DNA from: Labedaea sp.
Lineage (GTDB): Bacteria; Actinomycetota; Actinomycetes; Mycobacteriales; Pseudonocardiaceae
Direction of reading: 5' to 3'
NCBI GenBank assembly: GCA_045806965.1
Contig: JBJMIG010000059.1
Location: 2,656 to 66,655, forward strand
DNA length: 64,000 nt
In this document: piece by piece, positions 12,940 through 52,258 of the stretch
Layout: each line of letters starts with the position of its first letter
Numbering within the stretch: position 1 is the stretch's first letter
Program-made: the position numbers and the translations under genes
The notes under the pieces: generated by a model
Database searches by the model: none
Seen by the model: the letters and a program-made list of their open reading frames with translations, nothing else
What the model was told of the DNA's origin: nothing

Positions 12940-15228
12940 TCATCCGAACAGGGCCGGGAGGGTGCGCTCCCAGGTGGGGCCCAGCTCGTCGAGCGGCAGC
13001 GTGGTCACGCCCTCGATCTCCAGGGTGCCCCAGGTCGGCTCGACCACACCGATCCGCGCCACCGGCAGGCCGCGCTCGGCGCACAGGTCGGTGAGTCGCG
13101 CCACGGCGGCCGGCGGCACCGCGACCAGTACCCGAGCGGCGGACTCGCTGAACAGCTGCACGAACGGGTCGCCGGCCAGGGTGACCCGGCAGCCCGTGTC
13201 GCCGATCAGGCACGACTCGACCAGCGTTTGCGCCAGCCCACCGTCGGACAGGTCGTGCGCGACGGACACCAGGCCGTCCCCCGCGGCGTCGGCGATCACC
13301 CCGGCGATCACCTTCTCCCGGGCCAGATCCACCCGTGGCGGCCGCCCACCGAGGTGACCGTGTACGACGTGCGCCCACTCCGAGCCGCCGAACTCGTCCC
13401 TGGTCTCGCCGAGCAGCAGCAGCGCGTGGCCGGCGACGTCCGGGCTGAACCCGGTGGGAATCCGGCGCGCCACGTCGTCGATCACCCCGAGCACGCCGAC
13501 CACCGGGGTGGGCAGGATCGCCGTGGACCCGGTCTGGTTGTAGAAGCTGACATTGCCGCCGGTGACCGGGATGCCAAGCGCCGCGCAGCCGTCGGCGAGT
13601 CCGCGCACCGCCTGCTGGAACTGCCACATCACGCCGGGGTCCTCGGGCGAACCGAAGTTGAGGCAGTTGGTCACGGCCACCGGGCGCGCGCCGGACGCGG
13701 CCACGTTGCGGTACGCCTCGGCCAGCGCGAGCTGGGTGCCGGCGTAGGGATCCAGGTGGACGAACCTGGCGTTGCAGTCACAGGACAGCGCCACCCCTCG
13801 GCCGCTCTCCTCGTCGATCCGGATCATGCCGGCGTCGGACGGCTGGGCCAGCACGGTGCCACCGCGCACGTACCGGTCGTACTGCTCGGTGACCCACCGC
13901 CGGGAGCACAGGTTGGCCGAGGAAGTCATGCGCAGCACGGTGAACCGCAGTTCGTCCGATGTGGACGGACGGCGCAGCGCCTCCGGCCCGTTGTCCGCGA
14001 TGGCGTCCTGACCGGCCGGCCGCTCGACCGGCCGCTCGTAGACCGGACCCTCGTGCGCGACGGTGCGCGGCGGCACGTCCACCACGGTCGCGCCGTGCCA
14101 GGTGATCACCAGGCGGTCGTCGTCGGTGACCTCGCCGATCTCGGTGGCGATCACGTCCCACTTCGCGCAGACCGCCATGAAGGCGTCCACATCGGACGGA
14201 CGGACGACCGCGCACATCCGCTCCTGCGACTCGCTGGACAGGATCTCGGCCGGCGTCATTCCGTTGGCGCGCAGCGGAACCCGGTCCAGCTCGACGCGCA
14301 TGCCGCCGTCACCGGCGCTGGCCAGCTCGCTGGTGGCGCAGGACAGCCCGGCACCGCCGAGGTCCTGGATGCCCACCACCAGCCCGAGGGCGAACAGCTC
14401 GAGGCAACACTCGATCAGCACCTTCTCGGTGAACGGGTCGCCGACCTGCACGCTCGGCAGCTTCTTGCGGCCGGCGCCACCCTCGTCGCCCGCGAAGGTG
14501 TCCGAGGCCAGCACCGATACCCCGCCGATGCCGTCCAACCCGGTCCGCGCCCCGAACAGGATCACTGTGTTGCCGGTGCCCGACGCGTGCGCCAGGTGCA
14601 GGTCCTCGACCCGCATCGCGCCCACGCACAGCGCGTTCACCAGCGGGTTTCCCTGGTAGGTCGGGTCGAACACGAGCTCGCCGCCGATGTTGGGCAGGCC
14701 GAGGCAGTTGCCGTAGCCGCCGATCCCGGCCACCACGCCGGGCAGCACCCGACGGGTGTCGTCCGCCTCCGGCGTGCCGAACCGCAACGGGTCCATCACG
14801 GCGAGCGGTCGCGCGCCCATGGCCAGGATGTCCCGCACGATCCCGCCAACCCCGGTGGCCGCGCCCTGGAAGGGCTCCACATAGGACGGGTGGTTGTGGG
14901 ACTCCACCTTGAACGTCACCGCCCAGCCGTCGCCGATGTCCACCACCCCGGCGTTCTCCCCGATGCCGGCCAGCATCGCGGCGCGCATCTCGTCGGTGGT
15001 GGTCTCACCGAAGTAGCGCAGGTGCACCTTGGACGACTTGTAGGAGCAGTGCTCGCTCCACATGACGGAGTACATCGCGAGCTCGGCGTCGGTCGGCCGG
15101 CGGCCGAGGATCTCCCGGATCCGGGCGTACTCGTCGTCCTTCAGGCCGAGCTCGCGGTAGGGCTGCGCGACGTCCGGGGTGGCCGTCGCGCGCTCGACGG
15201 TGTCAACGGAGACGGTGGTGACGGACAC
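12940..15228 (-). CDS. purL: phosphoribosylformylglycinamidine synthase subunit PurL
   Basis: 762 aa, full-length match to the PurL pattern ([19 protein letters not shown]). Confidence 0.95.
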
Positions 15229-15237
15229 GCGGGCAGC

Positions 15238-27707: not shown

Positions 27708-29132
27708 CTACAGGATCGGCGCCGGTGAATATCCGGCTTCCTCGCCGAACCGCGCCAGCACGTCGAACACCCGTTTCACCACGGCAGCCACCTGCTCGCC
27801 GGCCACCCCGGTGAAGCGGAGCCGGTCCGCCAGCAGCTCGTCAAGCTGGCCCCGGTCCAGCGGTATCCGCTGGTCAGCGGCCAACCGGTCGAGCAGGTCG
27901 TTGTGCTCGGCGCCCTCCTCGCGCATGGCCAGCGCCACCCCGACGGCGTGCTCCTTGATCGCCTCGTGCGCGCTCTCCCGGCCCACCCCGGCCCGGACCG
28001 CCGCGATCAGCACCTTCGTCGTGGCCAGGAACGGCAGGTAGCGGTCCAGCTCCCGGGCGATGACCGCGGGGTAGGCGCCGAACCCGTCGAGCACCGTGAG
28101 GAAGGTCTCGAACAGACCATCCAACGCGAAGAACGCGTCCGGCAGCGCCACCCGGCGCACCACCGAGCAGGACACGTCGCCCTCGTTCCACTGGTCCCCG
28201 GCCAGCTCGCCGACCATCGACAGATAGCCGCGCAGCACCACGGCCAGGCCGTTGACCCGCTCGCAGGACCGGGAGTTCATCTTGTGCGGCATGGCCGACG
28301 AGCCAACCTGGCCGGGCCGGAACCCCTCGGTGGCCAGCTCGTGCCCGGCCATCAGCCGGATCGTGGTGGCCAGGCTTGCCGGCGCCGCGGCCAACTGGAC
28401 CAGGGCGGAGAGCACGTCGAAGTCGAGCGAGCGCGGGTACACCTGGCCGACGCTGGTGAGCACCCGCTGGAAACCCAAGTGGGCGGCCACCTTCTGCTCC
28501 AACTCGTCTACAGTGGACGAGTCGCCGAGCAGGTCGAGCATGTCCTGCGCGGTGCCGACCGGACCCTTGAGGCCGCGCAGCGGATACCGGTCGATCAGGT
28601 TCTCCAGCCGCTCGAACGCCACCAACAGCTCCTCGGCCGCGCTGGCGAACCGCTTGCCAAGCGTGGTCGCCTGCGCCGGCACGTTGTGCGACCGCCCGGC
28701 CAGCACCAGGTCGGCGTGCTCGGCGGCCAGCCGGGCCAGCCGGGCCAGCGTCGCCGCCACCCGGCCGCGCACCAGCTCAAGCGAGCGGCGCACCTGCAAC
28801 TGCTCGACGTTCTCGGTGAGGTCCCTGGACGTCATGCCCTTGTGGATGTGCTCGTGCCCGGCCAGCGCGTTGAACTCCTCGATCCGCGCCTTCACGTCGT
28901 GCAGGTTCACCCGCTCCCGGGCCGCGATCGACGCCAGGTCAACGGATTCCAGCACCCGCTGGTAGTCGGCGATGACCTCGTCCGGTACGTCCACGCCGAG
29001 CTCGGCCTGGGCGCGGAGCACGGCCAGCCAGAGTTGCCGCTCCAGCACCACCTTGTGCTCCGCCGCCCACAGGCCGGCCAGCTCGGCGGAGGCGTAGCGG
29101 CTGGCCAGAACGTTGTCGATGCGCGCCTTCAC
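27708..29132 (-). CDS. purB: adenylosuccinate lyase
   Basis: 474 aa, fumarate-lyase superfamily signature GSSAMPHKMNSRSCE. N-terminus SRYASAELAGLW is typical of PurB. Confidence 0.9.
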   Translation of the reverse strand: MKARIDNVLASRYASAELAGLWAAEHKVVLERQLWLAVLRAQAELGVDVPDEVIADYQRVLESVDLASIAARERVNLHDVKARIEEFNALAGHEHIHKGMTSRDLTENVEQLQVRRSLELVRGRVAATLARLARLAAEHADLVLAGRSHNVPAQATTLGKRFASAAEELLVAFERLENLIDRYPLRGLKGPVGTAQDMLDLLGDSSTVDELEQKVAAHLGFQRVLTSVGQVYPRSLDFDVLSALVQLAAAPASLATTIRLMAGHELATEGFRPGQVGSSAMPHKMNSRSCERVNGLAVVLRGYLSMVGELAGDQWNEGDVSCSVVRRVALPDAFFALDGLFETFLTVLDGFGAYPAVIARELDRYLPFLATTKVLIAAVRAGVGRESAHEAIKEHAVGVALAMREEGAEHNDLLDRLAADQRIPLDRGQLDELLADRLRFTGVAGEQVAAVVKRVFDVLARFGEEAGYSPAPIL

Positions 29133-29205
29133 TCCGCCGAGCCTAGCCGTCAGAAGGTCGGCCGACCGGCCGTCGCGACCGCGGTCAAGTTCGCCGCAGG
29201 CGAGT

Positions 29206-29805
29206 TCAGGATTGCACCGGGCGGGCGGACAGCGCCTCGCGCAGCATGTCGCGGGCCGCCTGCCGCGGGTCCGGGTCCACCTCGATCAGCGCGTTCACCA
29301 CGGCGCCGTCCACCAGCGAGATCAGCTGCTCGAGCCGGCGGTCGTCCATCTTGTCCCCGGAGCGGATGAAGATCTCCTTGAGCAGCCCGCGCAGCTCGAC
29401 GCCGAGCTTGCGGCTCAGCGGCCGTAGGTAGGGCCGGCGCGGGGTGGCCACCAGCCGCTCGTAGCGACCGAGGATGGACTCCGCGTCGTTGGCCGACTCG
29501 GCGCCGAGCAGCATGTCCAGCACCAGTTCGACCTGGGTGTCCGGGCCGCGCGGTGCGGTGTCCAGCTCGGCCAGCCGCTCCCGGCCCCTGGCCAGCTCGA
29601 TCCGGCCGCGCAGCTCCACCGCGGCGGTCACCAGCTCGTCGAGGGACTCGAAGTAGTAGGTCGTCGAGGCCAGCGGGAGCCCGGCTCGCTCGGCCACCGC
29701 CCGATGCCGCACCGCCTCGAAGCCGCCTTCCATCAGCAGCGCGGCGGCCGCCTCGACCAGCGCCTGCCGGCGTCTCTCGCCCTTCGGCGTACTTCCGCTG
29801 GTCAT
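29206..29805 (-). CDS. TetR-family transcriptional regulator
   Basis: N-terminal TetR HTH (FEAVRHRAVAERAGLPLASTTYYF). ATG overlaps the stop of the upstream gene (ATGA). Confidence 0.85.
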   Translation of the reverse strand: MTSGSTPKGERRRQALVEAAAALLMEGGFEAVRHRAVAERAGLPLASTTYYFESLDELVTAAVELRGRIELARGRERLAELDTAPRGPDTQVELVLDMLLGAESANDAESILGRYERLVATPRRPYLRPLSRKLGVELRGLLKEIFIRSGDKMDDRRLEQLISLVDGAVVNALIEVDPDPRQAARDMLREALSARPVQS

Positions 29806-30542
29806 CTGAGCGAGCTGGCGATCCTGTCCGCGATGCCCTGCAGCTGCGGCTCGAACGGCGCCGCTCCGCCGCCGGCCGGTGGCTCACTGATCAGCACCGC
29901 GTGACGCCCGTCGCGGGCGATCCCGACCCGGATCATCGCGCCCGGGCGGCCGTTGGCCGGGCTGGCGAACTCCGCGTTCGACGGCGCGACGACCACCGAG
30001 ACGGTCCCGCTTGGCAACACGAACGTCACACCACGACCCTCGGGCGGGCAGTAAACGCTGGCGGCCGGAACGGCCGAAGAAGGGGCGGCCCGGAGCTCGC
30101 CCGCGAGGGCAGCAGCGAGCTCCGGGTCCGCCTTGTCGCACCCACGAGGGGTGCTGCCGGGCCCTGCTGGGCCGGCGTTCCCGGTCGGAGTGCCTCCCTG
30201 CTTAGGCGACTCCGCCGAGAAGCTTTCGTCGGCTGTCCCACCGCCAGCAGCAGCGCGCGGAACACCCTCGCTGGGTACCTCGTTCGGAGCGGGCTGTCCG
30301 TTACCACTTGAATCGGCAGCCAACGTCCCGTTCTCGGTCCCAGCTCCTTTCCACAATGCCACGGTCAGGACACCGGCGACGGCCAGAATCGCGACCGCGA
30401 GCACAGAACCACCCGTAAGTGCACGTCGGCGCCGTGCCCGTTGCCGGTACGACTCGGCCGTGATATCGCTGTGACCAAACGACGGCGGCGGCGCGTCCGG
30501 GACCGCCTCGCGGAACATCTCACCCAGTTTGCGCTCGTCCAT
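29802..30542 (-). CDS. single-pass membrane protein downstream of an ECF sigma factor (possible anti-sigma/partner protein)
   Basis: Cytoplasmic N-terminus, one TM (GGSVLAVAILAVAGVLTVALW), Pro/Gly/Ala-rich extracytoplasmic region. Assigned by position, not homology. Confidence 0.55.
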   Translation of the reverse strand: MDERKLGEMFREAVPDAPPPSFGHSDITAESYRQRARRRRALTGGSVLAVAILAVAGVLTVALWKGAGTENGTLAADSSGNGQPAPNEVPSEGVPRAAAGGGTADESFSAESPKQGGTPTGNAGPAGPGSTPRGCDKADPELAAALAGELRAAPSSAVPAASVYCPPEGRGVTFVLPSGTVSVVVAPSNAEFASPANGRPGAMIRVGIARDGRHAVLISEPPAGGGAAPFEPQLQGIADRIASSLR

Positions 30543-30590: not shown

Positions 30591-31121
30591 TCATGACGCG
30601 GACCGCAGATCGTCCAGCGCGTCGCCGAGCACCTCGCGCAGGGCGGTCAACCCGCGCGCCGTCTGGCTCTTCACCGTGCCCTCCGAGCACTTGAGCGCCT
30701 CGGCCGTGGCCGCCACGTCAAGGCCCTCGAGGAACCTCAGCACGAGCACCGCCCGTTGCCGGGGCGGAACCCGCCGCAGGCCGTCGAGCAGCGCCGACCG
30801 GGTGGCCACCGAGTCCCCGACCGTGGCATCACCCGAACCGTTCGGGTGCGCCACCTCGGGCAGCTCGTCCACCGAACGCTCCCGGCGCCACGGCCGGCGC
30901 GTCTCGTCGATCATCGCCCGCACCAGCGTCCTGCGTACGTAAGCGTCCAGGGCACCTCGGTCCCGGATCTTGCGCCACTTCCGGTGCAGCGCGACGAACG
31001 CGGTCTGCGCCAGGTCGTCCGCCCGGTGCCAGTCGCCACAGAGCATGAACGCGGTGCGCCGCACGGCATCCCGCCTCGCCGCGAAATACTCCGCGAACTC
31101 CTGCTCCTCGCGCTGCTCCAC
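30591..31121 (-). CDS. SigE-family ECF RNA polymerase sigma factor
   Basis: GTG 31121 after GGAGAG. Region 2 (DDLAQTAFVALHRKWRKI) and region 4 (RQRAVLVLRFLEGLDVAATAEALKCSEGTVKSQ). Confidence 0.85.
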   Translation of the reverse strand: MEQREEQEFAEYFAARRDAVRRTAFMLCGDWHRADDLAQTAFVALHRKWRKIRDRGALDAYVRRTLVRAMIDETRRPWRRERSVDELPEVAHPNGSGDATVGDSVATRSALLDGLRRVPPRQRAVLVLRFLEGLDVAATAEALKCSEGTVKSQTARGLTALREVLGDALDDLRSAS

Positions 31122-31237
31122 GCGGACTTCTCTCCGCTCGTCATCCTGCGAACCGGGGACGGACCGTACGGCCTCAACGGTTGCACGGACCGTTGCTGAG
31201 ATTTACGCCACCCCTCCGTAGCCGGGTGGGGTGACAA

Positions 31238-32508: not shown

Positions 32509-33669
32509 TCACCGGTTCCCGCTGCGCCATTCGCCGAGCCGGCGCAGGCCCTCGGCCACGTCCGCGGTGCTGCCGGCGAAGGAGAACCGCACGAACCGAT
32601 CGCCCTGTGCCGGATCGAAGTCCACTCCGGGCACGATGGCAAGGCCGGTGTCGGCAAGAAGCTTCGCGCAGAAGCTCATCGAGTCGCCGGTCAGGTGTGA
32701 GACGTCGGCGTAGGCGTAGAACGCGCCATCCGCGGGAGCCAGCCTGCTGATGCCCTCCTCGGCAAGTCCCTTGACCAGTCGGTCGCGGTTGACCCGGTAC
32801 CTGGCCACGTGAGCGTCCAACTCGGCGTAGGACTCCGGCTCGAACGCGGCCACCGCCGCGTGCTGGGCCAGTGCCGGCGGGCACAGGGTGAAGTTGCCGG
32901 TCAGGCAGTCGATCGCACGGTGCAGCCGGCGGGGTACCAACAGCCAGCCGAGGCGCCACCCGGTCATCGCGAAGTACTTGGAGAACGAGTTCACCACGAC
33001 GGCCTCGGTCGAGTATCGCCACGCGGTCGCGGTCGGCTGCTCGTAGGCGATGCCGTGGTAGAGCTCGTCGCTGATCAGCCGCACGCCGCGCGCCGCGCAC
33101 CAGCCGGCGATCCGCTCCAGGTCGGCCGGGGCGAGCACGGTGCCGGTCGGGTTGGCCGGGCTGGCGAGCACCAGGCCGTCGATGCGAGGTAGTTCGTCGA
33201 GCATTTCGACGGTCGGCTGGAATCGGGTCTGCTCGCCGCAGGGCAGCTCGACCACCTCCGCGCCGAGGGCGCTGAGAATGTTGCGGTAGGCGGGATAGCC
33301 GGGCCGGACCACCGCCACCCGGTCGCCGGCGTCGAACGCGGCCAGGAACGCGAGCAGGAAGCCGCCAGACGAACCCGTGGTGATCACCACCTGCCGCGGG
33401 TCGACATCGAGGTCACTGGTGCGGCCGTAGTGCGCGGCCACGGCGGCCCGCAGCTCCGGGATGCCGAGCTGCTCGGTGTAACCGAGGCTGTGCGTTGCCA
33501 GCACCTCGGCCGCCCTGGCCAGCACCGGCTTCGGCGCGCCCGCGCTCGGCTGGCCGGCGGCGAGCGAGATCACGTCGCCGTGGGTGCGCTGCCGGGCGTT
33601 GGCCGCGGAGAGCACGTCCATCACGTGGAACGGCGGGATCGCCGCCCGCCCGGCCACCTTCGGCTGCAT
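32509..33669 (-). CDS. class I/II PLP-dependent aminotransferase
   Basis: IPPFHVMDVL ... NPTGT ... SFSKYFAMTGWRLGW (PLP Lys). ATG 33669 is preferred over the track GTG 33711, which would overlap the upstream gene. Confidence 0.85.
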   Translation of the reverse strand: MQPKVAGRAAIPPFHVMDVLSAANARQRTHGDVISLAAGQPSAGAPKPVLARAAEVLATHSLGYTEQLGIPELRAAVAAHYGRTSDLDVDPRQVVITTGSSGGFLLAFLAAFDAGDRVAVVRPGYPAYRNILSALGAEVVELPCGEQTRFQPTVEMLDELPRIDGLVLASPANPTGTVLAPADLERIAGWCAARGVRLISDELYHGIAYEQPTATAWRYSTEAVVVNSFSKYFAMTGWRLGWLLVPRRLHRAIDCLTGNFTLCPPALAQHAAVAAFEPESYAELDAHVARYRVNRDRLVKGLAEEGISRLAPADGAFYAYADVSHLTGDSMSFCAKLLADTGLAIVPGVDFDPAQGDRFVRFSFAGSTADVAEGLRRLGEWRSGNR

Positions 33670-33688
33670 GCGGCCCAGCTTATGAGCG

Positions 33689-34854
33689 TCAGTAGCCGAC
33701 GTAACCGCCACCGCCGTGGATCGCCTTGATGCCCGGCACGTTGCCGAGCGAACCGTAGCGGCTGACCGAGTAGCGGACGCCGGCGATGATGTTGTCCACC
33801 GGGTTCCAGATGTCGTTGTGGCCGGGCAACTTGTGCGCGTTGAACGTGGAGTCGATGCACTGCATCAGGCCCTTGGACGGGTGACCGGCCGCCGCGTTGG
33901 AGTCCCACAGGTTGATCGCCTTGGGGTTGCCGCCGGACTCGTGCTGGATGATCTGCCAGATGTACTGGGCGTCGGCCTCGCTGACGTTGATCCCGTTCTG
34001 ACGCAGGATCTCGATCGCCTGCTTGATCCACTCCTGGACGTTGCCCGGCGGCGGGCCGCCGGTCGGGGGACCGCCGCTCGAGCCGAGGCCGCCACCTCCT
34101 CCGCCGCCGCCACCGGTGGGACCACCGCCACCACCGCCGGTCGGGCCGCCGCCCGCCGCACCGGCGCCGGTGCCGGTGCTGCCGTTGCCGCCGCTGCCCG
34201 GGGGCGGGCTGTCGGTGGTACCGGACGGCGCGGTCTGGCCGGGCGGTGTCGGCGTCCACTCGATCGGTGTGCCGGGTTGCGGGGTGAACGGCTGGGTGTT
34301 CGGGTCGGACATCGAGGAGAACGTGCTGGCCGGGCTGGCCGCGCCGGCCAGTGTCCCGGCCGCGGCGCTCAGCACGGCCTCGGTGCCGTCGAGGTGCTTG
34401 CGGATGTCCCCGGCGGCCTCGCCGCAGATTTCCCTGGTGTACCCGTCGAGCTGGGCCTGGTCGGCGTCCTTGTGGTTGCGGAGCCAGGTGTTGATCTCGG
34501 TGAGCGCCTGGTCGCAGCGGGTCTGGACATAGCTCTTGGCGCTGGTGAGGCCTCCGCCACCTTGTTGAGCGCACCGGCCGCCTGGGTCATCGCGCCGCCG
34601 ACGTCCGTGCCGGCCTTGCCGAATCGGTCCATGTAGGCGACGAACTGGTCCGCCGAGGTGCCCTCCCAGGCGGCGTCGAGGCCGCGGACCGCCTTGCCGA
34701 CCGCACCGGCGTTGGCGCTGGCGTTGGTGGCCGCGGTGGACAACCGGGCAGCCGCCGCCGCGACCGCTCCCGGGTCGGCGTTGTCCACCTTGCTCGCCTG
34801 AGCGGTCACCAGGTCGCCGCCCGCGTACCTGGCCAGGTCACCCGCCGCGCTCAC
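33689..34854 (-). pseudogene. WXG100-like N-terminal domain fused to a Pro/Gly-rich linker and a C-terminal lytic transglycosylase (SLT/GH23), interrupted by a 1-nt frameshift near 34548-34553
   Basis: Frame A runs from GTG 34854 and reads ...LDAAWEGTSADQFVAYMDRFGKAGTDVGGAMTQAAGALNKVAEA. It then degenerates into low-GC3 junk. Frame B becomes GC3-rich and protein-like from the same point (LTSAKSYVQTRCDQALTEINTWLRNHKDADQAQLDGY...) and ends in IIQHESGGNPKAINLWDSNAAAGHPSKGLMQ. Confidence 0.6.
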
Positions 34855-35162
34855 AGCAGCCTCACCTCTGGGGTCATCGAACGGACGTTGTTGTCCTCGG
34901 TGTTCTGCACGCTCCGCACCACCGCGTCCAGCGACCGCGCCACCTGGTCCAACGTGTTCTCCGCGGCGGTGAACTCCTTGTGCATCGCGGAGTTCAGCGC
35001 GTCGACGGCGCGGGCCACCGCGGCCGAACTCGTCAGCTCGCCGTACGCCGCGGCATTCCCGCCGCCCTCCGGGAACGTGTCCGCGATCTCGCCGAACTTC
35101 GGCTTGTAGTCCTGCGCCCGGCGCATGCAGTCGTTGATCGCCTCGATGTTGTAACTGGGCAC
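34851..35162 (-). CDS. EspC/DUF2580-like small helical type VII secretion-associated protein
   Basis: 103 aa from GTG 35162 (GGAGGG 9 nt upstream). Central AAYGEL motif and helical flanks, as in EspC-like proteins. Stop overlaps the start of the next gene (GTGA). Confidence 0.55.
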   Translation of the reverse strand: MPSYNIEAINDCMRRAQDYKPKFGEIADTFPEGGGNAAAYGELTSSAAVARAVDALNSAMHKEFTAAENTLDQVARSLDAVVRSVQNTEDNNVRSMTPEVRLL

Positions 35163-35235
35163 GTTGGCACACCCTCCACGCTCGCTCCGGTTCGGACGCG
35201 ACGGCGCGCCGCGAGGTTCCCGCCACACCGCCTCC

Positions 35236-35345
35236 GCGGTTTCGTTCGCTCCGTTCGCTCGCTCCGGTTACAGCGCAAGGTGACCTTCCTGCGCTTCTAA
35301 CAGCGCAATGTCACCTTGCGCTGTAAACGAACGGCGCTGTATCCC
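35236..35345. repeat. composite palindromic repeat, locus R3 (2 cores)
   Basis: ACAGCGCAAGGTGACCTTCCTGCGC (35270-35294), TTCTA, ACAGCGCAATGTCACCTTGCGCTGT (35300-35324). Preceded by CGTTCGCTCGCTCC-type tail sequence. Confidence 0.85.
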
Positions 35346-35356
35346 GGGCGGGCCGA

Positions 35357-36124
35357 TCACACCTCGTCCAGTAGTTCCCGGACGAAGCCGGCCAGCATGG
35401 CGTTGTCCGCCGGGGTGACGGTGCTCCAGGTCTTCCCCGCGTTGTTGGGCCTGGTCAGGTAGGCGTAGCGGCCTTCGGGGGTGTCGTGGAAGGCGACCAC
35501 CCGGTCGGCCCGGCGGACCTGCTGGTCGCGCGGGCGGCGCTCCACACCGAACTGGCCCCTGGCGGCCATGCCGGCCAACATCGCGGCAAGGCCCTGGGCG
35601 TCCAGTTGGGAGACTCCCTTGTCCCGCAGGAAACTCGCGAGCTGCTGCGGGGTCTCGGCGCGGGCGTCGGCGGCGTGTAGCAGGTCGGTGTCGACACTGA
35701 CCGAGAAGCCGCGGCCGGCCGGAACCACTCCGGCCACCGACACCGCGGCCTCGGCCAGTGCGGTTGGCCTGGCCGGGATCAGCCACACCTCGCGCGGCTC
35801 GACCACGGCGAGCAGGCCCTGGCCGTTGGCGGTGACCGCGAGCGAGGAGATCTCGCGGTCGGTCCAGACCCAGCTGTCGATGCTGAACCCGGGATACGCC
35901 AACAGGTTCAGCCAGTCAGCGAGCTCCGCCTTGGCGCGCTCGCCCTCGGCCAAGCCGCGCCGCTCGAGATCGTCGAACGCGGTACGGCGCAGTTGGGCCC
36001 GCTCGGTGTGGGTCCGGCCGGGACTGACCATGGTGAGCGCGACGTGCCTCGGTGGCAGCCGCTGCGCCTCCCACAGCACGTCGAACTCCAGCGTGGACAG
36101 CACCACGCTGCCGGTTGCCGGCAC
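35357..36124 (-). CDS. espG: ESX secretion-associated chaperone EspG
   Basis: 255 aa. N-terminal LSTLEFDVLWEAQRLPP hallmark of the EspG family. Immediately downstream of the PPE-like gene. Confidence 0.8.
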   Translation of the reverse strand: MPATGSVVLSTLEFDVLWEAQRLPPRHVALTMVSPGRTHTERAQLRRTAFDDLERRGLAEGERAKAELADWLNLLAYPGFSIDSWVWTDREISSLAVTANGQGLLAVVEPREVWLIPARPTALAEAAVSVAGVVPAGRGFSVSVDTDLLHAADARAETPQQLASFLRDKGVSQLDAQGLAAMLAGMAARGQFGVERRPRDQQVRRADRVVAFHDTPEGRYAYLTRPNNAGKTWSTVTPADNAMLAGFVRELLDEV

Positions 36125-36139
36125 GGTCGTCAGCCCTCG

Positions 36140-37405
36140 TCAGCCCTCGTCGTCATCGTCACCGATCAGCGCGGGCGCGATCGGCCGGTAGTCCTCGAAC
36201 ACGTCCGCCGACTCGACCCCGTACTTGCGCACATGCTCGCCGTCCTCCTCGTCCGGGGCGTTGCCGGTGGCCGGCTGGAGGATCGAGCTGGCCGCCGGTT
36301 TGGGTGATCGCGCGCCGAACTTCTCGGCGTTGCGCACGCTGCGGGCCTCCTCGGGCGGCTCCTGGGCGAGCGGTGACTTCGGTGCGCCGCCTCGACCCTC
36401 GCGCTCCGCTTCGGCGACGCCGCCGCCGGGCGCACCACCCGCGCCCGGCCGGCCGCGCACCAGGCGGTCCTTCTCGGTGGTCGCACCAACCGCCGCACCT
36501 TGCGCTCCCGCGCCGGCGATCGCGGCCGCGTCGGCGACCAGGAGGGAGGGAACCGCACGCGGGCCGAATCCCGGTGCACCCTCGACCGGAAGGCCGGTCG
36601 GCAGCGGCAACACCGGTCCGACGCCGGTTCGTGGACCCGGCTGGCCTGGCAGGCCTACCGGGCCGGGCCCGGGCGCCGGGCCGCCGGGCTGACCGCCGAG
36701 CAACGGCGCTGCTCCCGAGCCGCCGGGGGCCGGTGCGGAGCCAGGGGCGCCGGGTGGTTGGCCAGGAGCGCCCGGGGTGAAGCCGGACCCGCCATGGAAG
36801 CCGTCCACCGGGCCGACCTGGGTTCCGGTGGCGGACTGCTGCGTGACCAGCCCGACGCCGGGCGGGACCGGGAGTGTCTGCACCCCGCCGATGGCTGAGG
36901 AGCTGGCCGACTGGTATCCGTTCAGGCCGGCGATCGCCTGGTCCCGCGCGGCACCGGTGGACGCGACATCCTTGGCGTGGTCGGTGGTGTGCCCGAGCAG
37001 GCCGGCGAACCGGTCGAACCCGTCAAGCTGGGTGGGCCCGCGCAAGGTGCCCGAGTCCGGCGCGCTGTTTCGGGTGTGCGCGAACGATCCGCTCTGGTTC
37101 GACACGCCCTTGGCCGACTCCCCGACCGGCGTCACCGCGTCCTCGGCAAAGACGGAAGCCTGCTTGGTGGCCGCGGTTCCGCCGTCCGCCGCCTGGCCCT
37201 GCCAGGACACCCCGATCTGCTGCAACTGCTCGCGCAGCACCCGGTCCGTCTCGGCCAACCCCCCGGCAAGCGCGATGAGTGCGCGCGCGGCGTTGTGCAA
37301 ACTCTCCGACCCGGCCCCGTTGCGCAACCCGTCGACCTGCTCGGCCAAGGCCTGGTTGTCGTATCCCTCGAACCGCAGGTCGTCGAGCCCGTAGTCGCCG
37401 TCCAT
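36140..37405 (-). CDS. PPE-like domain protein with a long Pro/Gly-rich C-terminal region
   Basis: ATG 37405 after GAGGTGAGG. N-terminal helical PPE-like domain (FEGYDNQALAEQVDGL ... IGVSWQGQAADGG, containing WxG) followed by a low-complexity PG-rich tail. Confidence 0.75.
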   Translation of the reverse strand: MDGDYGLDDLRFEGYDNQALAEQVDGLRNGAGSESLHNAARALIALAGGLAETDRVLREQLQQIGVSWQGQAADGGTAATKQASVFAEDAVTPVGESAKGVSNQSGSFAHTRNSAPDSGTLRGPTQLDGFDRFAGLLGHTTDHAKDVASTGAARDQAIAGLNGYQSASSSAIGGVQTLPVPPGVGLVTQQSATGTQVGPVDGFHGGSGFTPGAPGQPPGAPGSAPAPGGSGAAPLLGGQPGGPAPGPGPVGLPGQPGPRTGVGPVLPLPTGLPVEGAPGFGPRAVPSLLVADAAAIAGAGAQGAAVGATTEKDRLVRGRPGAGGAPGGGVAEAEREGRGGAPKSPLAQEPPEEARSVRNAEKFGARSPKPAASSILQPATGNAPDEEDGEHVRKYGVESADVFEDYRPIAPALIGDDDDEG

Positions 37406-37414
37406 TGCCTCACC

Positions 37415-38053
37415 TCACTTCAACGTTCGCAACGTCTGCACGGCCAACCCGGCCGCCTGTTCGGCCCGTTGGCACAATTCATCAAGCGTGAACGTATGGT
37501 TCCCGTCATTGTCGGTGTTGACCATCAACTGCTGCCCTTCGGCCACATCGACCGACGTGCTGCAATCAGGAGTGTTGTGGCCATTCGCGCCGCGAAACCA
37601 ATAGGTGGCAGCCGGATAGGTCTCCACCGAGGCGAGCCTCGCTTCGACATTTCTCTTGCCACCCAACCACGGCCCTATACCTTCGTTGGTTACCAGTGTC
37701 ACGGCGAACTCGTAGTACGGCGGCTGCCGCTGCACGCTGAGGATGCATTCCGGCATGCCGTTGTACTGCTGCGATTTGTTGGTCGAATTTCGGACCCGGT
37801 TCGCCTTCAGCTGATCCCGTTGCGGCTCGGTGAACAGTGCGCACGGGTCGAGCCCGTCCAGCCTCAACTCCTTGGGCCGCGGCGGAATCTGCACCGATGA
37901 TGACGGGCGCCCCGAGGACGAGTTCGGCGACTGACCGGAGGTGCCAACCGATGTCGCACCGGGCGGCGGCGCGGGCTCGCCGGCCTCGCTCCGGGTGCAA
38001 CCAGCCACGGCGAGCAGCCCGGCCAGAGCCAACACCGCCGGGCAGCTACGCAC
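37415..38053 (-). CDS. DUF3558-like secreted lipoprotein
   Basis: GTG 38053 gives MRSCPAVLALAGLLAVAGC (lipobox). LDPCALFTEPQRDQL motif and conserved Cys pairs resemble DUF3558. The start overlaps the upstream stop (GTGCGTAG). Confidence 0.7.
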   Translation of the reverse strand: MRSCPAVLALAGLLAVAGCTRSEAGEPAPPPGATSVGTSGQSPNSSSGRPSSSVQIPPRPKELRLDGLDPCALFTEPQRDQLKANRVRNSTNKSQQYNGMPECILSVQRQPPYYEFAVTLVTNEGIGPWLGGKRNVEARLASVETYPAATYWFRGANGHNTPDCSTSVDVAEGQQLMVNTDNDGNHTFTLDELCQRAEQAAGLAVQTLRTLK

Positions 38054-38444
38054 CCCTTGTACCACCGAACGCGGCCGCCACCTCTTCGTCGGTGTACCCG
38101 TATGCCTTCGCGCTGTCCCCGCATTGCCGCGCCAGCTTGTACAAGCCGTCGATGTACTGCTTGATCCGATTGGCATAGGAGTTCTCGTGCTCCACGAGGA
38201 GGTCATTCCAAGCCGGCGCGATCCGGATGCTGACGTCGTCGTCGCCCGGCGGCACGACCCGCAGGTCGCCATACCCAGTCCGCAGCTTTTCGTGGAGAAC
38301 GTCCGCCTGGGTTTGGATGATTTTGGCGGCGGCCAGGACGTTGTCCTTGCTCACCGCGAAGGTGTTGGTGGTGAGGGTGGTTGCCTGGTCGAGTTGGGCG
38401 AAGGCGGTGCTGAGTCCCTGGCCGATCTCGCCTGGAAGTTCCAT
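38046..38444 (-). CDS. PE-like helical hairpin protein (non-mycobacterial PE domain)
   Basis: 132 aa, GGGGAGG RBS. PGDDDVS motif comparable to the PE AADEVS region. C-terminal YGYTDEE matches the YxxxD/E export motif. Confidence 0.55.
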   Translation of the reverse strand: MELPGEIGQGLSTAFAQLDQATTLTTNTFAVSKDNVLAAAKIIQTQADVLHEKLRTGYGDLRVVPPGDDDVSIRIAPAWNDLLVEHENSYANRIKQYIDGLYKLARQCGDSAKAYGYTDEEVAAAFGGTRGA

Positions 38445-38538
38445 GAGTGCCTCCCCGCCTGGTGCGCTGGCCGCAGGTTATCAAGTCGCGGGTATGAGCC
38501 AGTTTAGGTTGGACGCACTGCCCCGGTCGGGGGTTCCC

Positions 38539-39786
38539 CTAACGGGTGGCGGGGATGGCCCGCAGGGCGATGTCGGTGCGGTGATGGGAACCGGCCAGGT
38601 GGACCCGGGAAACGCGCTGGTAGGCCACGTCACGAGCGGACTCGATGGTCGGCGCCACGCCGACCACCGACAACACCCGCCCGCCCGCGGACACGATCGC
38701 ACCGTCCTCGCGGCGGCGGGTTCCGGCGTGCAGCACCCCCTCGGCATCGGCGCCGGTGATCAGGTCGCCGGTATGCGGGCGGCCCGGATACCCGTCGGCG
38801 GCGACCACCACGGTCACCGCGAAGTCGCCGGACCACTCCAGCGGCGGCTGCTCCGCCAGGGTGCCGGTGGCCACCGCGTGCAACAGCCCGGCCAACGGGG
38901 TGCGCAGCAGCGGCAGGATCACCTGGGTCTCCGGGTCACCGAAGCGGCAGTTGAACTCGATCACCTGCGGGCCGGACGCGGTCAGCACCAGGCCCGCGTA
39001 CAGCAAACCGGCGAACGGCGTACCGCGCCGGGCAAGCTCGGCGGCCACCGGGGCCACAACATCGCGCACCACCTGGTCGGCCAGCCCCGGGTCGGCCCAC
39101 GGCAGCGGGGCGTAGGCGCCCATGCCGCCGGTGTTCGGACCGGCGTCGCCGTCGCCGACCCGCTTGTAGTCCTGTGCCGGCAGCAGTGCGACCACGGTGT
39201 CACCGTCGACCAAGCAGAACAGCGACACCTCCTGACCCTCCAGGAACGACTCGAGCAACACCGGGTGGCCGGCCTCGAGCAGCGCCATCGCGTGCGCCCG
39301 TGCGGCCGCGACATCGGCGGTGACCACGACACCCTTGCCGGCGGCCAGGCCGTCGTCCTTGACCACCCAGGTCGGGCCGAACCGGGCAAGCGCGGCGTCG
39401 AGCCGGGCCGGGTTGTCCACCACTTCGGCGTGCGCCGTCGGCACCCCCGCCGCCGTCATGATCTCCTTGGCGAACGCCTTGGAGCCCTCGATCCTGGCCG
39501 CCTCGGCGGACGGCCCGAAGGCGGCGATGCCGGCCGCGCGCACCGCGTCGGCGACGCCGGCGACCAGCGGAACCTCGGGACCGATCACCACCAGATCGGC
39601 CGACCATCGCGCGGCCAGCGCGGCCACCGCCGCCGGCCCGGCGGCGTCGACGCCGTAGGACTCGGCCAGCGCGGCGGTGCCCGCATTGCCGGGAGCGCAG
39701 GCCAGCGCGGTCACCGCAGGGTCGTGCGACAACGCGAGCACGAGGGCGTGCTCGCGTGCTCCGGACCCGATCACCAGTACCCGCAC
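38539..39786 (-). CDS. purD: phosphoribosylamine-glycine ligase
   Basis: (M)[15 protein letters not shown]-terminus and ATP-grasp body. GTG 39786 is preferred over the track TTG 39792. Confidence 0.92.
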
Positions 39787-39820
39787 GGTCAACGAGCCTA
39801 GGCCATGCCGCGCGGCCCGG

Positions 39821-50255: not shown

Positions 50256-51551
<1,296 letters not shown>

Positions 51552-51622
51552 GTGAGACTCCCCGGGTGGACGCGTCCGTTCAGGCGAATTGCCGGAGATC
51601 GAGCGTAGACCAGGAGGCGAAC

Positions 51623-52258
51623 GTGGGCGCACTCGTGTTGGCCTGCGGGGTTGCCGCGAGCCGTCCGAACTGGACGGCGGTGCCCGCGAGGCCAGCCAGG
51701 GCCGATCTCGACCCGCTGCTCGGGACCGGGCCGGAGCGGGTGGTCGTGGTCGGCACCGACGCCGACCTGGCCGCCGTGGTGCTCCGGCTGCTGCGCACCG
51801 AGCGGCTCGAGCTGCCGGTCGGGTTCGTACCGGTGCACCGTGCCGGATCGGCGGTGGCCAGGCTCTGGCGGCTGCCCGCCGGTCGGGACGCGGCGATGGC
51901 GCTCGCCACCGGCGGCCGGCCGCGCGCGCTGCCGCTGGTCCGGGACGACTCCGGCGGGGTGTTGCTCGGCCGGGGTGTGACCGGACCGGTGCGCGGCGAG
52001 GCGTACTGCGACGACCAGTTGGCGCTGCGCGGCCGGGCGCGTCGCATCGAGGTCAGGCCCGGGCCGGCCGGGGTGCACGGACTCGTGGTCCTCGGTGGGC
52101 TGGCGCGCCGGCCGGCGTCGTTCGACGGCAGGGCGTTCCAGCTCGGCTGCGAGCCGGCCCGAGTGACCGTGGACGGCGTCGAGCACCCGCGGCCGGTGCG
52201 GCGTTGGACCTGGTACCGGCACACCGAGGACCTGTGCGCAGTCGCCTTGCCGGACTGA
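51623..52258 (+). CDS. hypothetical protein, degenerate diacylglycerol-kinase-like fold
   Basis: GTG 51623 after [25 protein letters not shown]...LPVGFVPV resembles a DAGK catalytic domain lacking the GGDG motif. Confidence 0.45.

What the first reader, a model, noticed from the sequence alone, without database searches (positions are those of the whole stretch)
33689..38444. Orphan ESX/type VII substrate island without secretion-machinery genes, wedged between purD and an aminotransferase
Six co-directional, tightly packed or overlapping genes sit here. They are a PE-like protein (C-terminal YGYTDEE, that is YxxxD/E), a DUF3558 lipoprotein, a PPE-like protein (VSWQGQ, that is WxG), EspG, an EspC-like protein, and a WXG100-domain protein fused to a cell-wall hydrolase. 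In mycobacteria, PE/PPE pairs need a cognate EspG and an EccB-E/MycP apparatus. No ecc or mycP gene is present anywhere in this 64-kb window. The island interrupts a housekeeping purine/central-metabolism neighbourhood. The PE-like and lipoprotein genes look visibly richer in A/T at third codon positions than their neighbours, by eye and not computed. This suggests a horizontally acquired or fast-evolving substrate cassette serviced in trans.
Basis: partly seen in the sequence, partly recalled or inferred. Interest (0 to 1): 0.75.

Follow-up and report, generated by a model that had tools for sequence, protein, structure and literature searches.

The report
Conserved orphan type VII substrate cassette
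This is a real but vertically inherited, family-wide gene cassette of a soil actinomycete (Labedaea, Pseudonocardiaceae) that encodes cargo proteins for a type VII secretion machine located elsewhere; it is not a recently acquired island, and one of its six genes is broken by a one-base frameshift in this sequence.

Summary
The six co-directional minus-strand genes between purD and an aminotransferase are real. PE-like, DUF3558 lipoprotein, PPE-like, EspG, WXG100 and SLT assignments hold. The "EspC-like" label does not: no family match in 23 orthologues. The WXG100–SLT gene is one ORF in relatives but is split here by a 1-nt deletion near 34549/34550. No ecc/mycP gene lies in the window. The horizontal-transfer reading fails. 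The same purD–cassette–aminotransferase order occurs in about 33 genomes of Actinophytocola, Actinokineospora, Amycolatopsis, Haloechinothrix and unnamed Pseudonocardiaceae. The source is a Labedaea MAG. The lower GC3 of the PE and lipoprotein genes is real but mild and is shared by orthologues. New here: two positionally conserved ECF-sigma promoters (GGAACC-N16-CGTC). One follows the purD stop; the other lies between espG and the small gene. They split the cassette into two operons. The closest described parallel is the Mycobacterium abscessus SigM/ESX-4 regulon, with orphan PE–DUF3558–PPE(–WXG100–wall hydrolase) operons. Best reading: trans-serviced substrates of an ESX-4-type system, including an exported lytic transglycosylase. 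A new member of a known kind, of moderate interest.

The parts
38512..38537 (-). P1: ECF-sigma-type promoter GGAACC-N16-CGTC(CAAC), starting 1-2 nt after the purD stop and upstream of the PE-like gene
   Evidence: Exact motif in the window. The same motif at the same place in 20 of 32 loci that include this spacer.
38475..38484 (-). Extended -10-like element TTGATAACCT (TTGGTAGCCT in most relatives), a possible housekeeping promoter of operon 1
   Evidence: Conserved sequence in nearly all loci and upstream of the paralogous quartets in L038 and L039. Its function is inferred.
38046..38444 (-). PE-like protein, 132 aa, with a C-terminal YxxxD/E secretion motif (YGYTD)
   Evidence: Pfam PE 22.7 bits against a cut-off of 22; 11 of 16 orthologues hit PE, best 9e-8. 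Profile against PDB PE25, E=1e-4, aligning the P-x-x-D-x-V-S motif. AF2 model pLDDT 79; the five best Foldseek hits are all PE25, TM 0.80-0.83. Y115 and the D/E at +4 are conserved in every orthologue. 100% identical to a 'hypothetical protein' of a Labedaea sp. MAG.
37415..38053 (-). DUF3558 lipoprotein, 212 aa (signal peptide with lipobox LAVAG|C, disordered linker, then a folded domain with four invariant Cys)
   Evidence: Pfam DUF3558 82.5 bits. Invariant C19 and C71/C103/C164/C194. AF2 pLDDT above 95 for residues 60-212: a beta-sheet plus a C-terminal helix. No significant PDB fold match. The start overlaps the PE stop by 8 nt, as in L001 and L002.
36140..37405 (-). PPE-like protein, 421 aa: N-terminal PPE domain (about 1-190, WQG at 68-70), Pro/Gly-rich linker, conserved acidic C-terminal motif EHVRKYGV..D.F.D.R
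   Evidence: Pfam PPE 22.5-24.7 bits, below the cut-off of 26; 15 of 15 orthologues hit PPE, best 1.2e-11. Profile against PDB PPE4 (6UUJ), E=2e-6 over the whole domain. C-terminal motif.
35357..36124 (-). EspG-family chaperone, 255 aa
   Evidence: Pfam EspG 213.5 bits, full length. Orthologue profile against EspG3 (4L4W), E=7e-5, and EspG5, 1e-3. 490 homologues; the named hits among the best 120 are Pseudonocardiaceae or unclassified Actinomycetota.
35195..35220 (-). P2: second ECF-sigma-type promoter GGAACC-N16-CGTC(CGAA), in the espG/small-gene spacer
   Evidence: Exact motif in the window. The same motif directly upstream of the small gene in 30 of 36 loci, including loci where the small gene has been displaced by insertions.
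34851..35162 (-). Small (103 aa) two-helix protein with a conserved (F/Y)G loop; putative partner of the WXG100-SLT protein; not EspC
   Evidence: GGAGGG ribosome-binding site followed by a GTG start. Orthologues precede the WXG gene in about 30 loci. No Pfam, NCBIfam or EspC hit. Only weak similarity to PE25 (E=0.14) and to WXG100. hhalign against the PE-like family, E=0.2.
34550..34854 (-). 5' part of the WXG100-SLT gene (WXG100 domain, WEG at 63-65). As written, this reading frame continues to a stop at 34369.
   Evidence: Pfam WXG100 33.9 bits. W-x-G invariant in 20 of 20 orthologues. GTGA start overlap with the small gene.
34549..34550 (-). Frameshift site: one base missing (GAGGC-CTCACC against GAGGCGCTCACC in relatives)
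   Evidence: The GC3 frame switches here. Translations in the two frames. DNA alignment with L004 (intact 387-aa gene; EspG 91% identical) and L001.
33689..34549 (-). 3' part of the WXG100-SLT gene in the other frame: helical extension, Pro/Gly-rich linker, SLT lytic transglycosylase domain (HES...GLMQ motifs intact)
   Evidence: Pfam SLT 47.6 bits. GC3 0.92. The repaired 388-aa protein aligns end to end with orthologues.

Best explanation
The region is a chromosomal cassette of two operons, conserved across the Pseudonocardiaceae. It encodes cargo and a chaperone for a type VII (ESX-4-like) secretion machine that is encoded elsewhere in the genome.

Operon 1 is driven by ECF-type promoter P1, probably together with a housekeeping extended -10 promoter. 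It encodes four proteins. A PE-like protein carries the YxxxD/E export signal. A PPE-like protein carries WxG. The two are expected to form the usual helical heterodimer. An EspG chaperone is expected to hold the PPE tip and deliver the dimer to the EccC ATPase. A DUF3558 lipoprotein is translationally coupled between the PE and PPE genes. It is exported by the Sec/lipoprotein route and sits on the outer face of the membrane, so it most likely acts on or with the PE/PPE pair after export.

Operon 2 is driven by ECF-type promoter P2. It encodes a small two-helix partner and a WXG100-domain protein that carries a C-terminal SLT lytic transglycosylase. This is a peptidoglycan-cutting enzyme delivered by the T7SS, either to open the producer's own wall or to attack neighbouring cells. 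In this particular sequence the gene is interrupted by a 1-nt deletion, which is either an assembly error in the MAG or a recent inactivation.

Shown: gene content, family assignments, motif conservation, synteny, promoter conservation, and absence of core genes in the window. Inferred: heterodimer formation, EspG binding, secretion in trans, which sigma factor acts, and the roles of the lipoprotein and the transglycosylase.
For: - Gene calls and families.
- PE.
- PPE.
- EspG.
- YxxxD/E conserved in every orthologue, and W-x-G invariant in the WXG100-SLT protein.
- Same gene order in about 33 genomes of at least four genera, never with ecc genes within 10 kb.
- P1 and P2: 50 of the 63 GGAAC-N15-18-CGTC occurrences in 646 kb of loci fall at these two spots.
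- T7SS cores exist in the order. ESX-4 clusters are reported in Pseudonocardiales (Saccharopolyspora erythraea has two; PMC4791881). Amycolatopsis MEP2-6 has an eccB-eccC-eccD-mycP cluster (PMC11004387). Amycolatopsis genomes carry this cassette.
- Direct precedent. The M. abscessus SigM regulon comprises ESX-4 esxUT plus orphan operons: PE-DUF3558-PPE, PE-DUF3558-PPE-WXG100-NlpC/P60, and PE-PPE-EspG. The SigM -35 element is GGAACCG (PMC13491425).
- PE-DUF3558-PPE-EspG quartets recur at other housekeeping loci in Saccharopolyspora and Herbihabitans.
Against: - No T7SS core gene could be shown for this MAG or for its nearest relatives; the support is from the literature on other genera.
- The window's PPE score is just under the Pfam cut-off, and the PE score is only just over it.
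- The small protein has no recognisable family and no YxxxD/E motif, so how the WXG100-SLT protein is targeted is unclear.
- The motif GGAAC-N16-18-CGTC alone is not enriched in the window (3 found, 3.2 expected). Its significance rests only on positional conservation.
- The adjacent ECF sigma has a different conserved promoter (GCAACC...CCGTC) and is SigE-family rather than SigM. The cognate sigma factor is therefore unidentified.
- The paralogous quartets lack the ECF motif.
- The DUF3558 fold gave no informative structural match.
Confidence: 0.7

Rival explanations
1. One reading: a horizontally acquired, AT3-rich island that was inserted into a purine and central-metabolism neighbourhood.
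For: GC3 of the PE gene (0.83) and the lipoprotein gene (0.78) is below the window mean of 0.908. Overall GC dips to 0.62-0.65 at 37250-38500. The cassette genes diverge faster than their flanks.
Against: The location and gene order are identical in about 33 genomes of Actinophytocola, Actinokineospora, Amycolatopsis, Haloechinothrix and unnamed Pseudonocardiaceae. Orthologues elsewhere show the same, milder GC3 ranking: lipoprotein 0.868, below PE and PPE at 0.89, below EspG at 0.916. The neighbouring anti-sigma gene is as low, at 0.76. There is no plasmid homologue of EspG. No tRNA gene or other annotated RNA lies in the window. The tight junctions leave no room for mobility genes: the P1 promoter starts 1-2 nt after the purD stop.
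Confidence: 0.05
2. Interbacterial weapon with immunity: the WXG100-SLT protein is a T7SS-delivered antibacterial wall-degrading toxin, and the DUF3558 lipoprotein is its immunity protein.
For: T7SS toxins typically have an N-terminal WXG/LXG-type helical domain, a small helical partner encoded upstream and a C-terminal enzyme, which is the architecture seen here. Immunity proteins to wall hydrolases are usually extracytoplasmic, and this lipoprotein is. Haloechinothrix lacks both the lipoprotein and the SLT gene. The region downstream of espG is variable.
Against: The lipoprotein gene sits in the other operon, translationally coupled to the PE gene. PE-DUF3558-PPE-EspG quartets occur with no SLT gene nearby. 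In M. abscessus, DUF3558 accompanies PE/PPE pairs whose downstream enzymes differ. The SLT domain itself is conserved rather than polymorphic: 68-82% identity across genera over residues about 264-388. The only Foldseek hit to an immunity protein, Tsi3, is weak (E 0.16, probability 0.41, TM below 0.4).
Confidence: 0.12
3. The split WXG100/SLT gene is a genuine pseudogene in this organism. Operon 2 has been functionally lost and only the PE/PPE/EspG/lipoprotein module remains active.
For: A one-base deletion relative to two relatives. Natural losses of this module occur: L007 and L035 lack it and L021 keeps only a fragment.
Against: The downstream frame keeps GC3 0.92, has no stop codon and retains the HES and GLMQ motifs, so any inactivation is very recent. 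The source is a metagenome-assembled genome, in which single-base indel errors occur.
Confidence: 0.4

Closest known systems
Mycobacterium abscessus SigM/ESX-4 regulon orphan operons (Mab_0012c-0010c; Mab_1828-1834; Mab_1896c-1894c; Mab_0149c-0147c). Canestrari et al. 2026, PMC13491425.
   Same: Operons away from the esx locus with the order PE - DUF3558 - PPE. One is followed by a WXG100 gene and a cell-wall hydrolase gene (NlpC/P60). Another is a PE-PPE-EspG triplet. They are driven by an ECF sigma whose -35 element is GGAACCG; here both P1 and P2 have the consensus GGAACCg. The proposed secretion route is the ancestral ESX-4 system.
   Different: The host here has no mycolic-acid outer membrane. 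All elements are combined in one cassette at a fixed chromosomal site. EspG is in the same operon as DUF3558. The hydrolase is an SLT transglycosylase fused to the WXG100 domain, not a separate NlpC/P60 gene. The sigma factor is unidentified. Sequence similarity to the mycobacterial proteins is only at family level.
M. tuberculosis PE25-PPE41-EspG5 and PE5-PPE4-EspG3 ternary complexes
   Same: The PE-like model superposes on PE25 (TM 0.8). The PPE-like profile matches PPE4 over the whole five-helix domain. The EspG profile matches EspG3 and EspG5. YxxxD/E is on the PE protein and WxG on the PPE protein.
   Different: There are no literal Pro-Glu or Pro-Pro-Glu N-terminal motifs. A lipoprotein gene is inserted between the pe and ppe genes. 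No adjacent ecc genes are present. EspG is too divergent for single-sequence detection against PDB. The PPE protein has a distinctive conserved acidic C-terminal motif.
Specialised lytic transglycosylases of secretion systems (VirB1, EtgA and IpgF type) and the T7SSb wall hydrolase EssH (from my own knowledge)
   Same: A peptidoglycan-cleaving enzyme is genetically tied to a secretion system, plausibly to let machinery or cargo through the wall.
   Different: Here the enzyme carries a T7SS substrate domain (WXG100) rather than a Sec signal, so it would itself be T7SS cargo.
LXG toxin / Lap partner modules of Firmicutes and EsxEF-CpnT of M. tuberculosis (from my own knowledge)
   Same: A small helical protein is encoded immediately upstream of a large effector that has an N-terminal WXG-type helical domain and a C-terminal enzyme.
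   Different: There is no sequence match to the LXG or Lap families. The C-terminal domain is conserved rather than polymorphic. No adjacent immunity gene is evident.

Membership tests
PE family (Pfam PF00934) | Profile score at or above the curated cut-off | tested here: met
   22.7 bits against a cut-off of 22, which is marginal. 11 of 16 orthologues match at E<=0.01, best 9.2e-8. Orthologue profile against PE25, E=1e-4.
PE family (Pfam PF00934) | Helix-turn-helix hairpin of about 100 aa with YxxxD/E at the end of helix 2 | tested here: met
   AF2 model; the five best Foldseek PDB hits are all PE25, TM 0.80-0.83, rmsd 2.2-2.4 A. YxxxD/E is conserved in every orthologue extracted.
PE family (Pfam PF00934) | Pro-Glu at about residues 8-9 | tested here: not met
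   The N-terminus MELPGEIGQG has no conserved PE dipeptide, and N-termini vary among orthologues.
PPE family (Pfam PF00823) | Profile score at or above the curated cut-off | tested here: inconclusive
   The window protein scores 22.5-24.7 bits against a cut-off of 26. All 15 orthologues match at E<=0.01, best 1.2e-11. Profile against PPE4 (6UUJ), E=2e-6 over residues 27-183.
PPE family (Pfam PF00823) | Pro-Pro-Glu near the N-terminus; WxG between helices 2 and 3 | tested here: inconclusive
   There is no PPE tripeptide. WQG is present in the window. The W is invariant, but the G is replaced by S in many Amycolatopsis sequences.
EspG (Pfam PF14011) | Full-length profile match | tested here: met
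   213.5 bits, profile positions 1-245 of 245. Orthologue profile against EspG3, E=7e-5.
EspG (Pfam PF14011) | Binds the tip of a cognate PPE protein | not testable with these tools
   No multimer prediction was available.
DUF3558 (Pfam PF12079) | Profile match; lipoprotein signal | tested here: met
   82.5 bits against a cut-off of 34.1. Lipobox LAVAG|C with an invariant Cys.
EspC / DUF2580 (Pfam PF10824), claimed for the small gene | Profile match | tested here: not met
   No hit for the window protein at E<=0.1, none in NCBIfam, and no EspC hit at E<=1 in any of 23 orthologues. EspC-model hits do occur for 8 of 16 orthologues of the PE-like gene.
WXG100 (Pfam PF06013) | Profile match with a central W-x-G | tested here: met
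   33.9 bits against a cut-off of 27.3. W63-x-G65 is invariant in 20 of 20 orthologues.
WXG100 (Pfam PF06013) | Stand-alone protein of about 100 residues | tested here: not met
   It is the N-terminal domain of a 370-390-aa protein (700 aa or more where an intein is present).
SLT lytic transglycosylase (Pfam PF01464) | Profile match; catalytic E-S and GLMQ motifs | tested here: met
   47.6 bits against a cut-off of 21.3. QHESGGNP and SKGLMQ are visible in the translation. In this window the domain is out of frame with the gene's start.
ESX / type VII secretion locus | [quoted passage not shown] | tested here: not met
   None among the coding-type ORFs of 400 aa or more in the 64 kb. None within 10 kb in the 33 related loci, judged from the conserved flanking genes.
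ESX / type VII secretion locus | Core genes present elsewhere in the same genome | not testable with these tools
   Only literature for other Pseudonocardiales is available: PMC4791881 and PMC11004387.
SigM-type regulon | Promoter with the -35 element GGAACCG and an ECF-type -10 element | tested here: met
   P1 and P2 have the consensus GGAACCg-N15-CGTC. The M. abscessus SigM -35 element is GGAACCG.
SigM-type regulon | A SigM orthologue that drives these promoters | not testable with these tools
   The adjacent ECF sigma is SigE-family: TIGR02983 scores 157 bits, while the SigM model scores 69 bits against a cut-off of 190. It also has a different conserved promoter.

The most novel reading that the evidence does not exclude
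The PE - DUF3558 - PPE - EspG module, together with a WXG100-tethered wall hydrolase and control by a SigM-like ECF sigma, is an ancient ESX-4 effector regulon. It would be shared by Pseudonocardiales and Mycobacteriales and would predate the mycomembrane and the mycobacterial ESX duplications. This is contrary to the model in which espG, pe and ppe were first recruited on plasmids in the Mycolata (PMC4791881). Pseudonocardiaceae would then offer a simple, non-pathogenic, single-membrane model for how ESX-4 exports PE/PPE cargo and what DUF3558 does.
Probability: 0.35. Interest if true: 0.6.

Novelty: new member of a known kind. Interest (0 to 1): 0.38.

Why it matters
Substrate genes encoded away from the secretion machine are normal for mycobacterial type VII systems, so the 'orphan' aspect is not surprising in itself. 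What is useful is the evolutionary and regulatory picture.

- A complete PE/PPE/EspG set, plus the enigmatic DUF3558 lipoprotein and a T7SS-tagged lytic transglycosylase, is fixed at one chromosomal site across a family of non-mycolate actinomycetes. According to the literature, this order has only ESX-4-type machines.
- The cassette sits behind two conserved ECF promoters that resemble the mycobacterial SigM site.
- This supports the recently proposed link between DUF3558, PE/PPE pairs, wall-active enzymes and ESX-4. It also suggests tractable model organisms, such as Amycolatopsis and Actinokineospora, for testing it.

Tried and rejected
- Exact-sequence look-ups of window proteins, and of the identical NCBI proteins P0121 and P0204, found no contig on record. 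The source contig's own annotation could therefore not be read.
- I could not locate ecc, mycP or sigM genes in any relative's genome.
- The small protein was tested against Pfam, NCBIfam, PDB sequences and the PE-like profile. Nothing was significant, so the EspC label is rejected and only 'EsxAB-clan-like hairpin' remains.
- hhalign of the WXG N-terminal domain against the PPE domain gave only generic helix-WxG similarity (E=0.0027, probability 11%). The idea that operon 2 is a second PE/PPE pair is not supported.
- The DUF3558 AF2 model against PDB gave no hit with E<0.01. The weak TiME/PsbP-like and Tsi3 similarities are not used.
- The adjacent ECF sigma was tested as regulator of the cassette. 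Its own conserved promoter has GCAACC and a different spacing, and the protein is SigE-family, so this is judged unlikely.
- The ECF motif is absent upstream of the paralogous quartets in Saccharopolyspora and Herbihabitans.
- Rfam found nothing in the window. The sigma-70 and terminator scans found nothing beyond chance.
- The papers giving the M. tuberculosis and M. smegmatis SigM consensus are not held. My recollection is that the mycobacterial SigM -10 element resembles CGTC/GTCCGA. That is memory only.

Full report
**What is in the sequence**

The window has 71% G+C. Between 33689 and 38444, third-position GC follows a single reading frame per gene on the minus strand. Six genes result:

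- PE-like, 38046-38444.
- DUF3558 lipoprotein, 37415-38053. Its GTG start overlaps the PE stop by 8 nt, and its lipobox is LAVAG|C.
- PPE-like, 36140-37405.
- EspG, 35357-36124.
- A 103-aa gene, 34851-35162, with a GGAGGG ribosome-binding site and a GTG start.
- A WXG100/SLT gene that starts at 34854 in a GTGA overlap with the small gene.

purD (38539-39792) and a class I/II aminotransferase (32509-33711) flank them.

The WXG100 domain and the SLT domain are in different frames, and the GC3 signal switches frame at about 34550. Two relatives have an intact single gene: a metagenome contig whose EspG is 91% identical (L004, 387 aa) and an Actinophytocola MAG (L001, 370 aa). Alignment with them shows that the window lacks one base: GAGGC-CTCACC against GAGGCGCTCACC. 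Inserting one base restores a 388-aa protein that is collinear with the orthologues. The downstream part keeps GC3 0.92 and the HES and GLMQ catalytic motifs. The source is a metagenome-assembled Labedaea genome: the lipoprotein (over the 206 residues NCBI calls) and the PE-like protein are 100% identical to NCBI proteins from a 69.6-kb contig of that MAG. I therefore cannot tell an assembly error from a very recent inactivation.

**Family assignments**

- EspG is unambiguous: 213 bits over the full length. The orthologue profile matches EspG3 and EspG5 structures.
- DUF3558 (82 bits), WXG100 (34 bits; W-x-G invariant in 20 of 20 orthologues) and SLT (48 bits) all pass their cut-offs.
- The PE-like protein only just passes (22.7 against 22). 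Other evidence supports it:
  - 11 of 16 orthologues hit PE, and the profile finds PE25 at E=1e-4.
  - The canonical P-x-x-D-x-V-S segment aligns with PE25.
  - An AF2 model (pLDDT 79) has PE25 as its five best structural matches, at TM 0.8.
  - YxxxD/E is conserved in all 32 orthologues extracted.
- The PPE-like protein scores just under the cut-off. All 15 orthologues hit PPE, best 1e-11. The profile matches PPE4 across the whole domain at 2e-6.
- The 'EspC-like' gene has no family. There is no Pfam or NCBIfam hit, no EspC hit in 23 orthologues, and only weak PE25 and WXG100 echoes. It is a two-helix hairpin with a conserved (F/Y)G loop. It always sits immediately upstream of the WXG100-SLT gene.

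**No machinery in the window**

Every coding-type ORF of 400 aa or more is accounted for. They are purL, purB, purD, purA, a LuxR/AAA regulator, a TPR/BTAD regulator, a GGDEF protein, an MFS transporter, a GMC oxidoreductase, an aldehyde dehydrogenase, a GH2 glucosaminidase, a TRAP DctM permease (identified through the Pfam annotation of its orthologue in L002) and others. None is EccB, EccC, EccD, EccE or MycP.

**Not a horizontally acquired island**

EspG homologues led to 33 genome loci in Actinophytocola, Actinokineospora, Amycolatopsis, Haloechinothrix and unnamed Pseudonocardiaceae. In essentially all of them the order is the same: purD - PE - DUF3558 - PPE - EspG - (small) - WXG/SLT - aminotransferase - 60-aa membrane protein - threonine-aldolase-like gene (opposite strand) - ECF sigma. 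This is true on both sides of the cassette.

Variation is confined to a few points:

- Loss of the lipoprotein and SLT genes in Haloechinothrix.
- Loss or decay of operon 2 in a few genomes.
- Insertions of up to 6-8 kb after espG or after the SLT gene in some Amycolatopsis.

However, orthologues show the same ranking, and the unrelated anti-sigma gene next door is equally low. No plasmid carries a homologue of this EspG. The cassette proteins do evolve faster than the flanks: against the genome-scan loci, 29-62% identity for the PE-like and lipoprotein genes and 51-76% for EspG, against 73-80% for purD.

**Regulation, which is new here**

Directly after the purD stop lies GGAACC-N16-CGTCCAAC (P1, 38512-38537). 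In the 194-nt espG/small-gene spacer lies GGAACC-N16-CGTCCGAA (P2, 35195-35220).

Within the window alone the motif is not more frequent than chance: 3 found, 3.2 expected. Across the related loci, however, 50 of 63 occurrences on the coding strand in 646 kb fall at exactly these two positions. P1 is present in 20 of 32 loci. P2 is present in 30 of 36, and it travels with the small gene where insertions have displaced it. The consensus sequences are GGAACCg...TgCGTCnAAc for P1 and GGAACCg...gcGCGTCtgA for P2. These are typical ECF-sigma promoters.

A conserved TTGGTAGCCT (TGnTAnnnT, extended -10-like) lies downstream of P1 in nearly all loci and upstream of the paralogous quartets. It suggests an additional housekeeping promoter.

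The syntenic ECF sigma gene three genes away is SigE-family, not SigM. It carries its own invariant promoter, TGCAACCGT-N13-CCGTC, with a different -35 element and spacing. It is probably not the regulator.

**Comparison with known systems**

A 2026 study of M. abscessus (PMC13491425) shows that SigM directly induces esxUT of ESX-4 plus 14 orphan loci. The SigM -35 element is GGAACCG. The orphan loci include PE-DUF3558-PPE, PE-DUF3558-PPE-WXG100-NlpC/P60 and PE-PPE-EspG. That study singles out DUF3558 and wall-active enzymes as recurrent themes. The cassette here combines all of these elements.

Newton-Foot et al. (PMC4791881) found only ESX-4-type clusters in Pseudonocardiales, and proposed that espG, pe and ppe were added later on plasmids in the Mycolata. 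An Amycolatopsis genome paper reports an eccB-eccC-eccD-mycP cluster (PMC11004387).

A full HMMER search with the PPE domain against 1.84 billion representatives found only 170 relatives. Those that carry an organism name are all Pseudonocardiaceae: Solihabitans, Saccharopolyspora, Herbihabitans and Pseudonocardia. PE-DUF3558-PPE-EspG quartets occur at other housekeeping sites in Saccharopolyspora and Herbihabitans, again without ecc genes nearby.

**DUF3558**

The AF2 model is confident for residues 60-212: a seven-stranded sheet packed on a long C-terminal helix. Four invariant cysteines, a lipidated Cys and a disordered tether fit an extracytoplasmic, disulfide-bonded domain. No PDB fold match was significant, so its function remains inferred from context only.

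**Verdict**

This is a conserved, vertically inherited, two-operon T7SS substrate cassette of the Pseudonocardiaceae, most likely serviced in trans by an ESX-4-type machine. It is plausibly controlled by a SigM-like ECF sigma. It is a new member of a known kind. The modest added value lies in the conserved promoters, the WXG100-tethered lytic transglycosylase and the evolutionary implication for PE/PPE/EspG origins.

Noticed in passing
L002:11118-13313 (Actinokineospora alba); also L008, L009, L011, L014, L015, L019: In several genera the WXG100-SLT orthologue is about 700-740 aa long. An insertion of about 350 aa splits the SLT domain after NNWD, at residue 318 of the window protein, and SNAAKGTPSKGLMQ resumes after it. 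It looks like an intein with a homing-endonuclease-like middle (it starts CLTTD... and ends ...FLTGN|S).
   Followed up: partly
window 31157-31185 (-), upstream of the ECF sigma gene 30591-31121: The syntenic SigE-family ECF sigma gene has an invariant promoter-like element, TGCAACCGT-N13-CCGTC, in all 25 loci examined. This is presumably autoregulation. A 246-aa putative anti-sigma gene with no family match (29802-30542, GC3 0.76) and a TetR gene follow it.
   Followed up: partly
window 36140-36330 (C-terminus of the PPE-like protein): A strongly conserved acidic C-terminal motif, ...LPEEE...(L/M)(Q/E)PAA...E(E/D)D.EHVR(K/R)YG(I/V)D..D(L/V)F.D.R.V.P..IGD, follows the Pro/Gly-rich linker in all genera. 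It has no known family. In Amycolatopsis it contains a second YxxxD (YGVDD).
   Followed up: partly
Loci L012, L026, L028, L029 (between espG and P2) and L009, L024, L026-L033 (between the SLT gene and the aminotransferase gene): There are variable insertions of 2-8 kb at the two junctions of operon 2 in Amycolatopsis. They include a GntR-like regulator directly upstream of the aminotransferase gene. P2 stays attached to the small gene.
   Followed up: no
L038:5611-8380 (Saccharopolyspora sp.), divergent from a paralogous PE-DUF3558-PPE-EspG quartet: Genes for an SseB-domain protein, a 114-aa protein, a 498-aa protein with the Pfam 'T7SS_signal' domain and a 147-aa protein sit back to back with the quartet. 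This suggests a further T7SS effector module.
   Followed up: no
P0382 (1873 aa) and P0411 (1164 aa): Two very long proteins match residues about 114-157 of the PPE-like domain (the segment around FGHTTDHAK) in 10 and 8 separate stretches. A short piece of this domain therefore also exists as a tandem repeat elsewhere.
   Followed up: no
window 12943-15237, 27711-29285, 38539-39792, 50259-52052: Four purine-pathway genes (purL, purB, purD, purA) are scattered over the 64 kb and interleaved with regulators and transporters. In the Actinophytocola relative L001, two extra ECF sigma/anti-sigma pairs lie between the TetR gene and purB; they are absent here.
   Followed up: no
Amycolatopsis loci, for example L010:7420-7470 and L008:7230-7290 (5' leader of the PE gene): In Amycolatopsis the conserved GGTAGCC of the extended -10-like element is followed 10-14 nt later by its complement GGCTACC. 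The two could form a hairpin in the P1 transcript leader. This is absent from the window.
   Followed up: no
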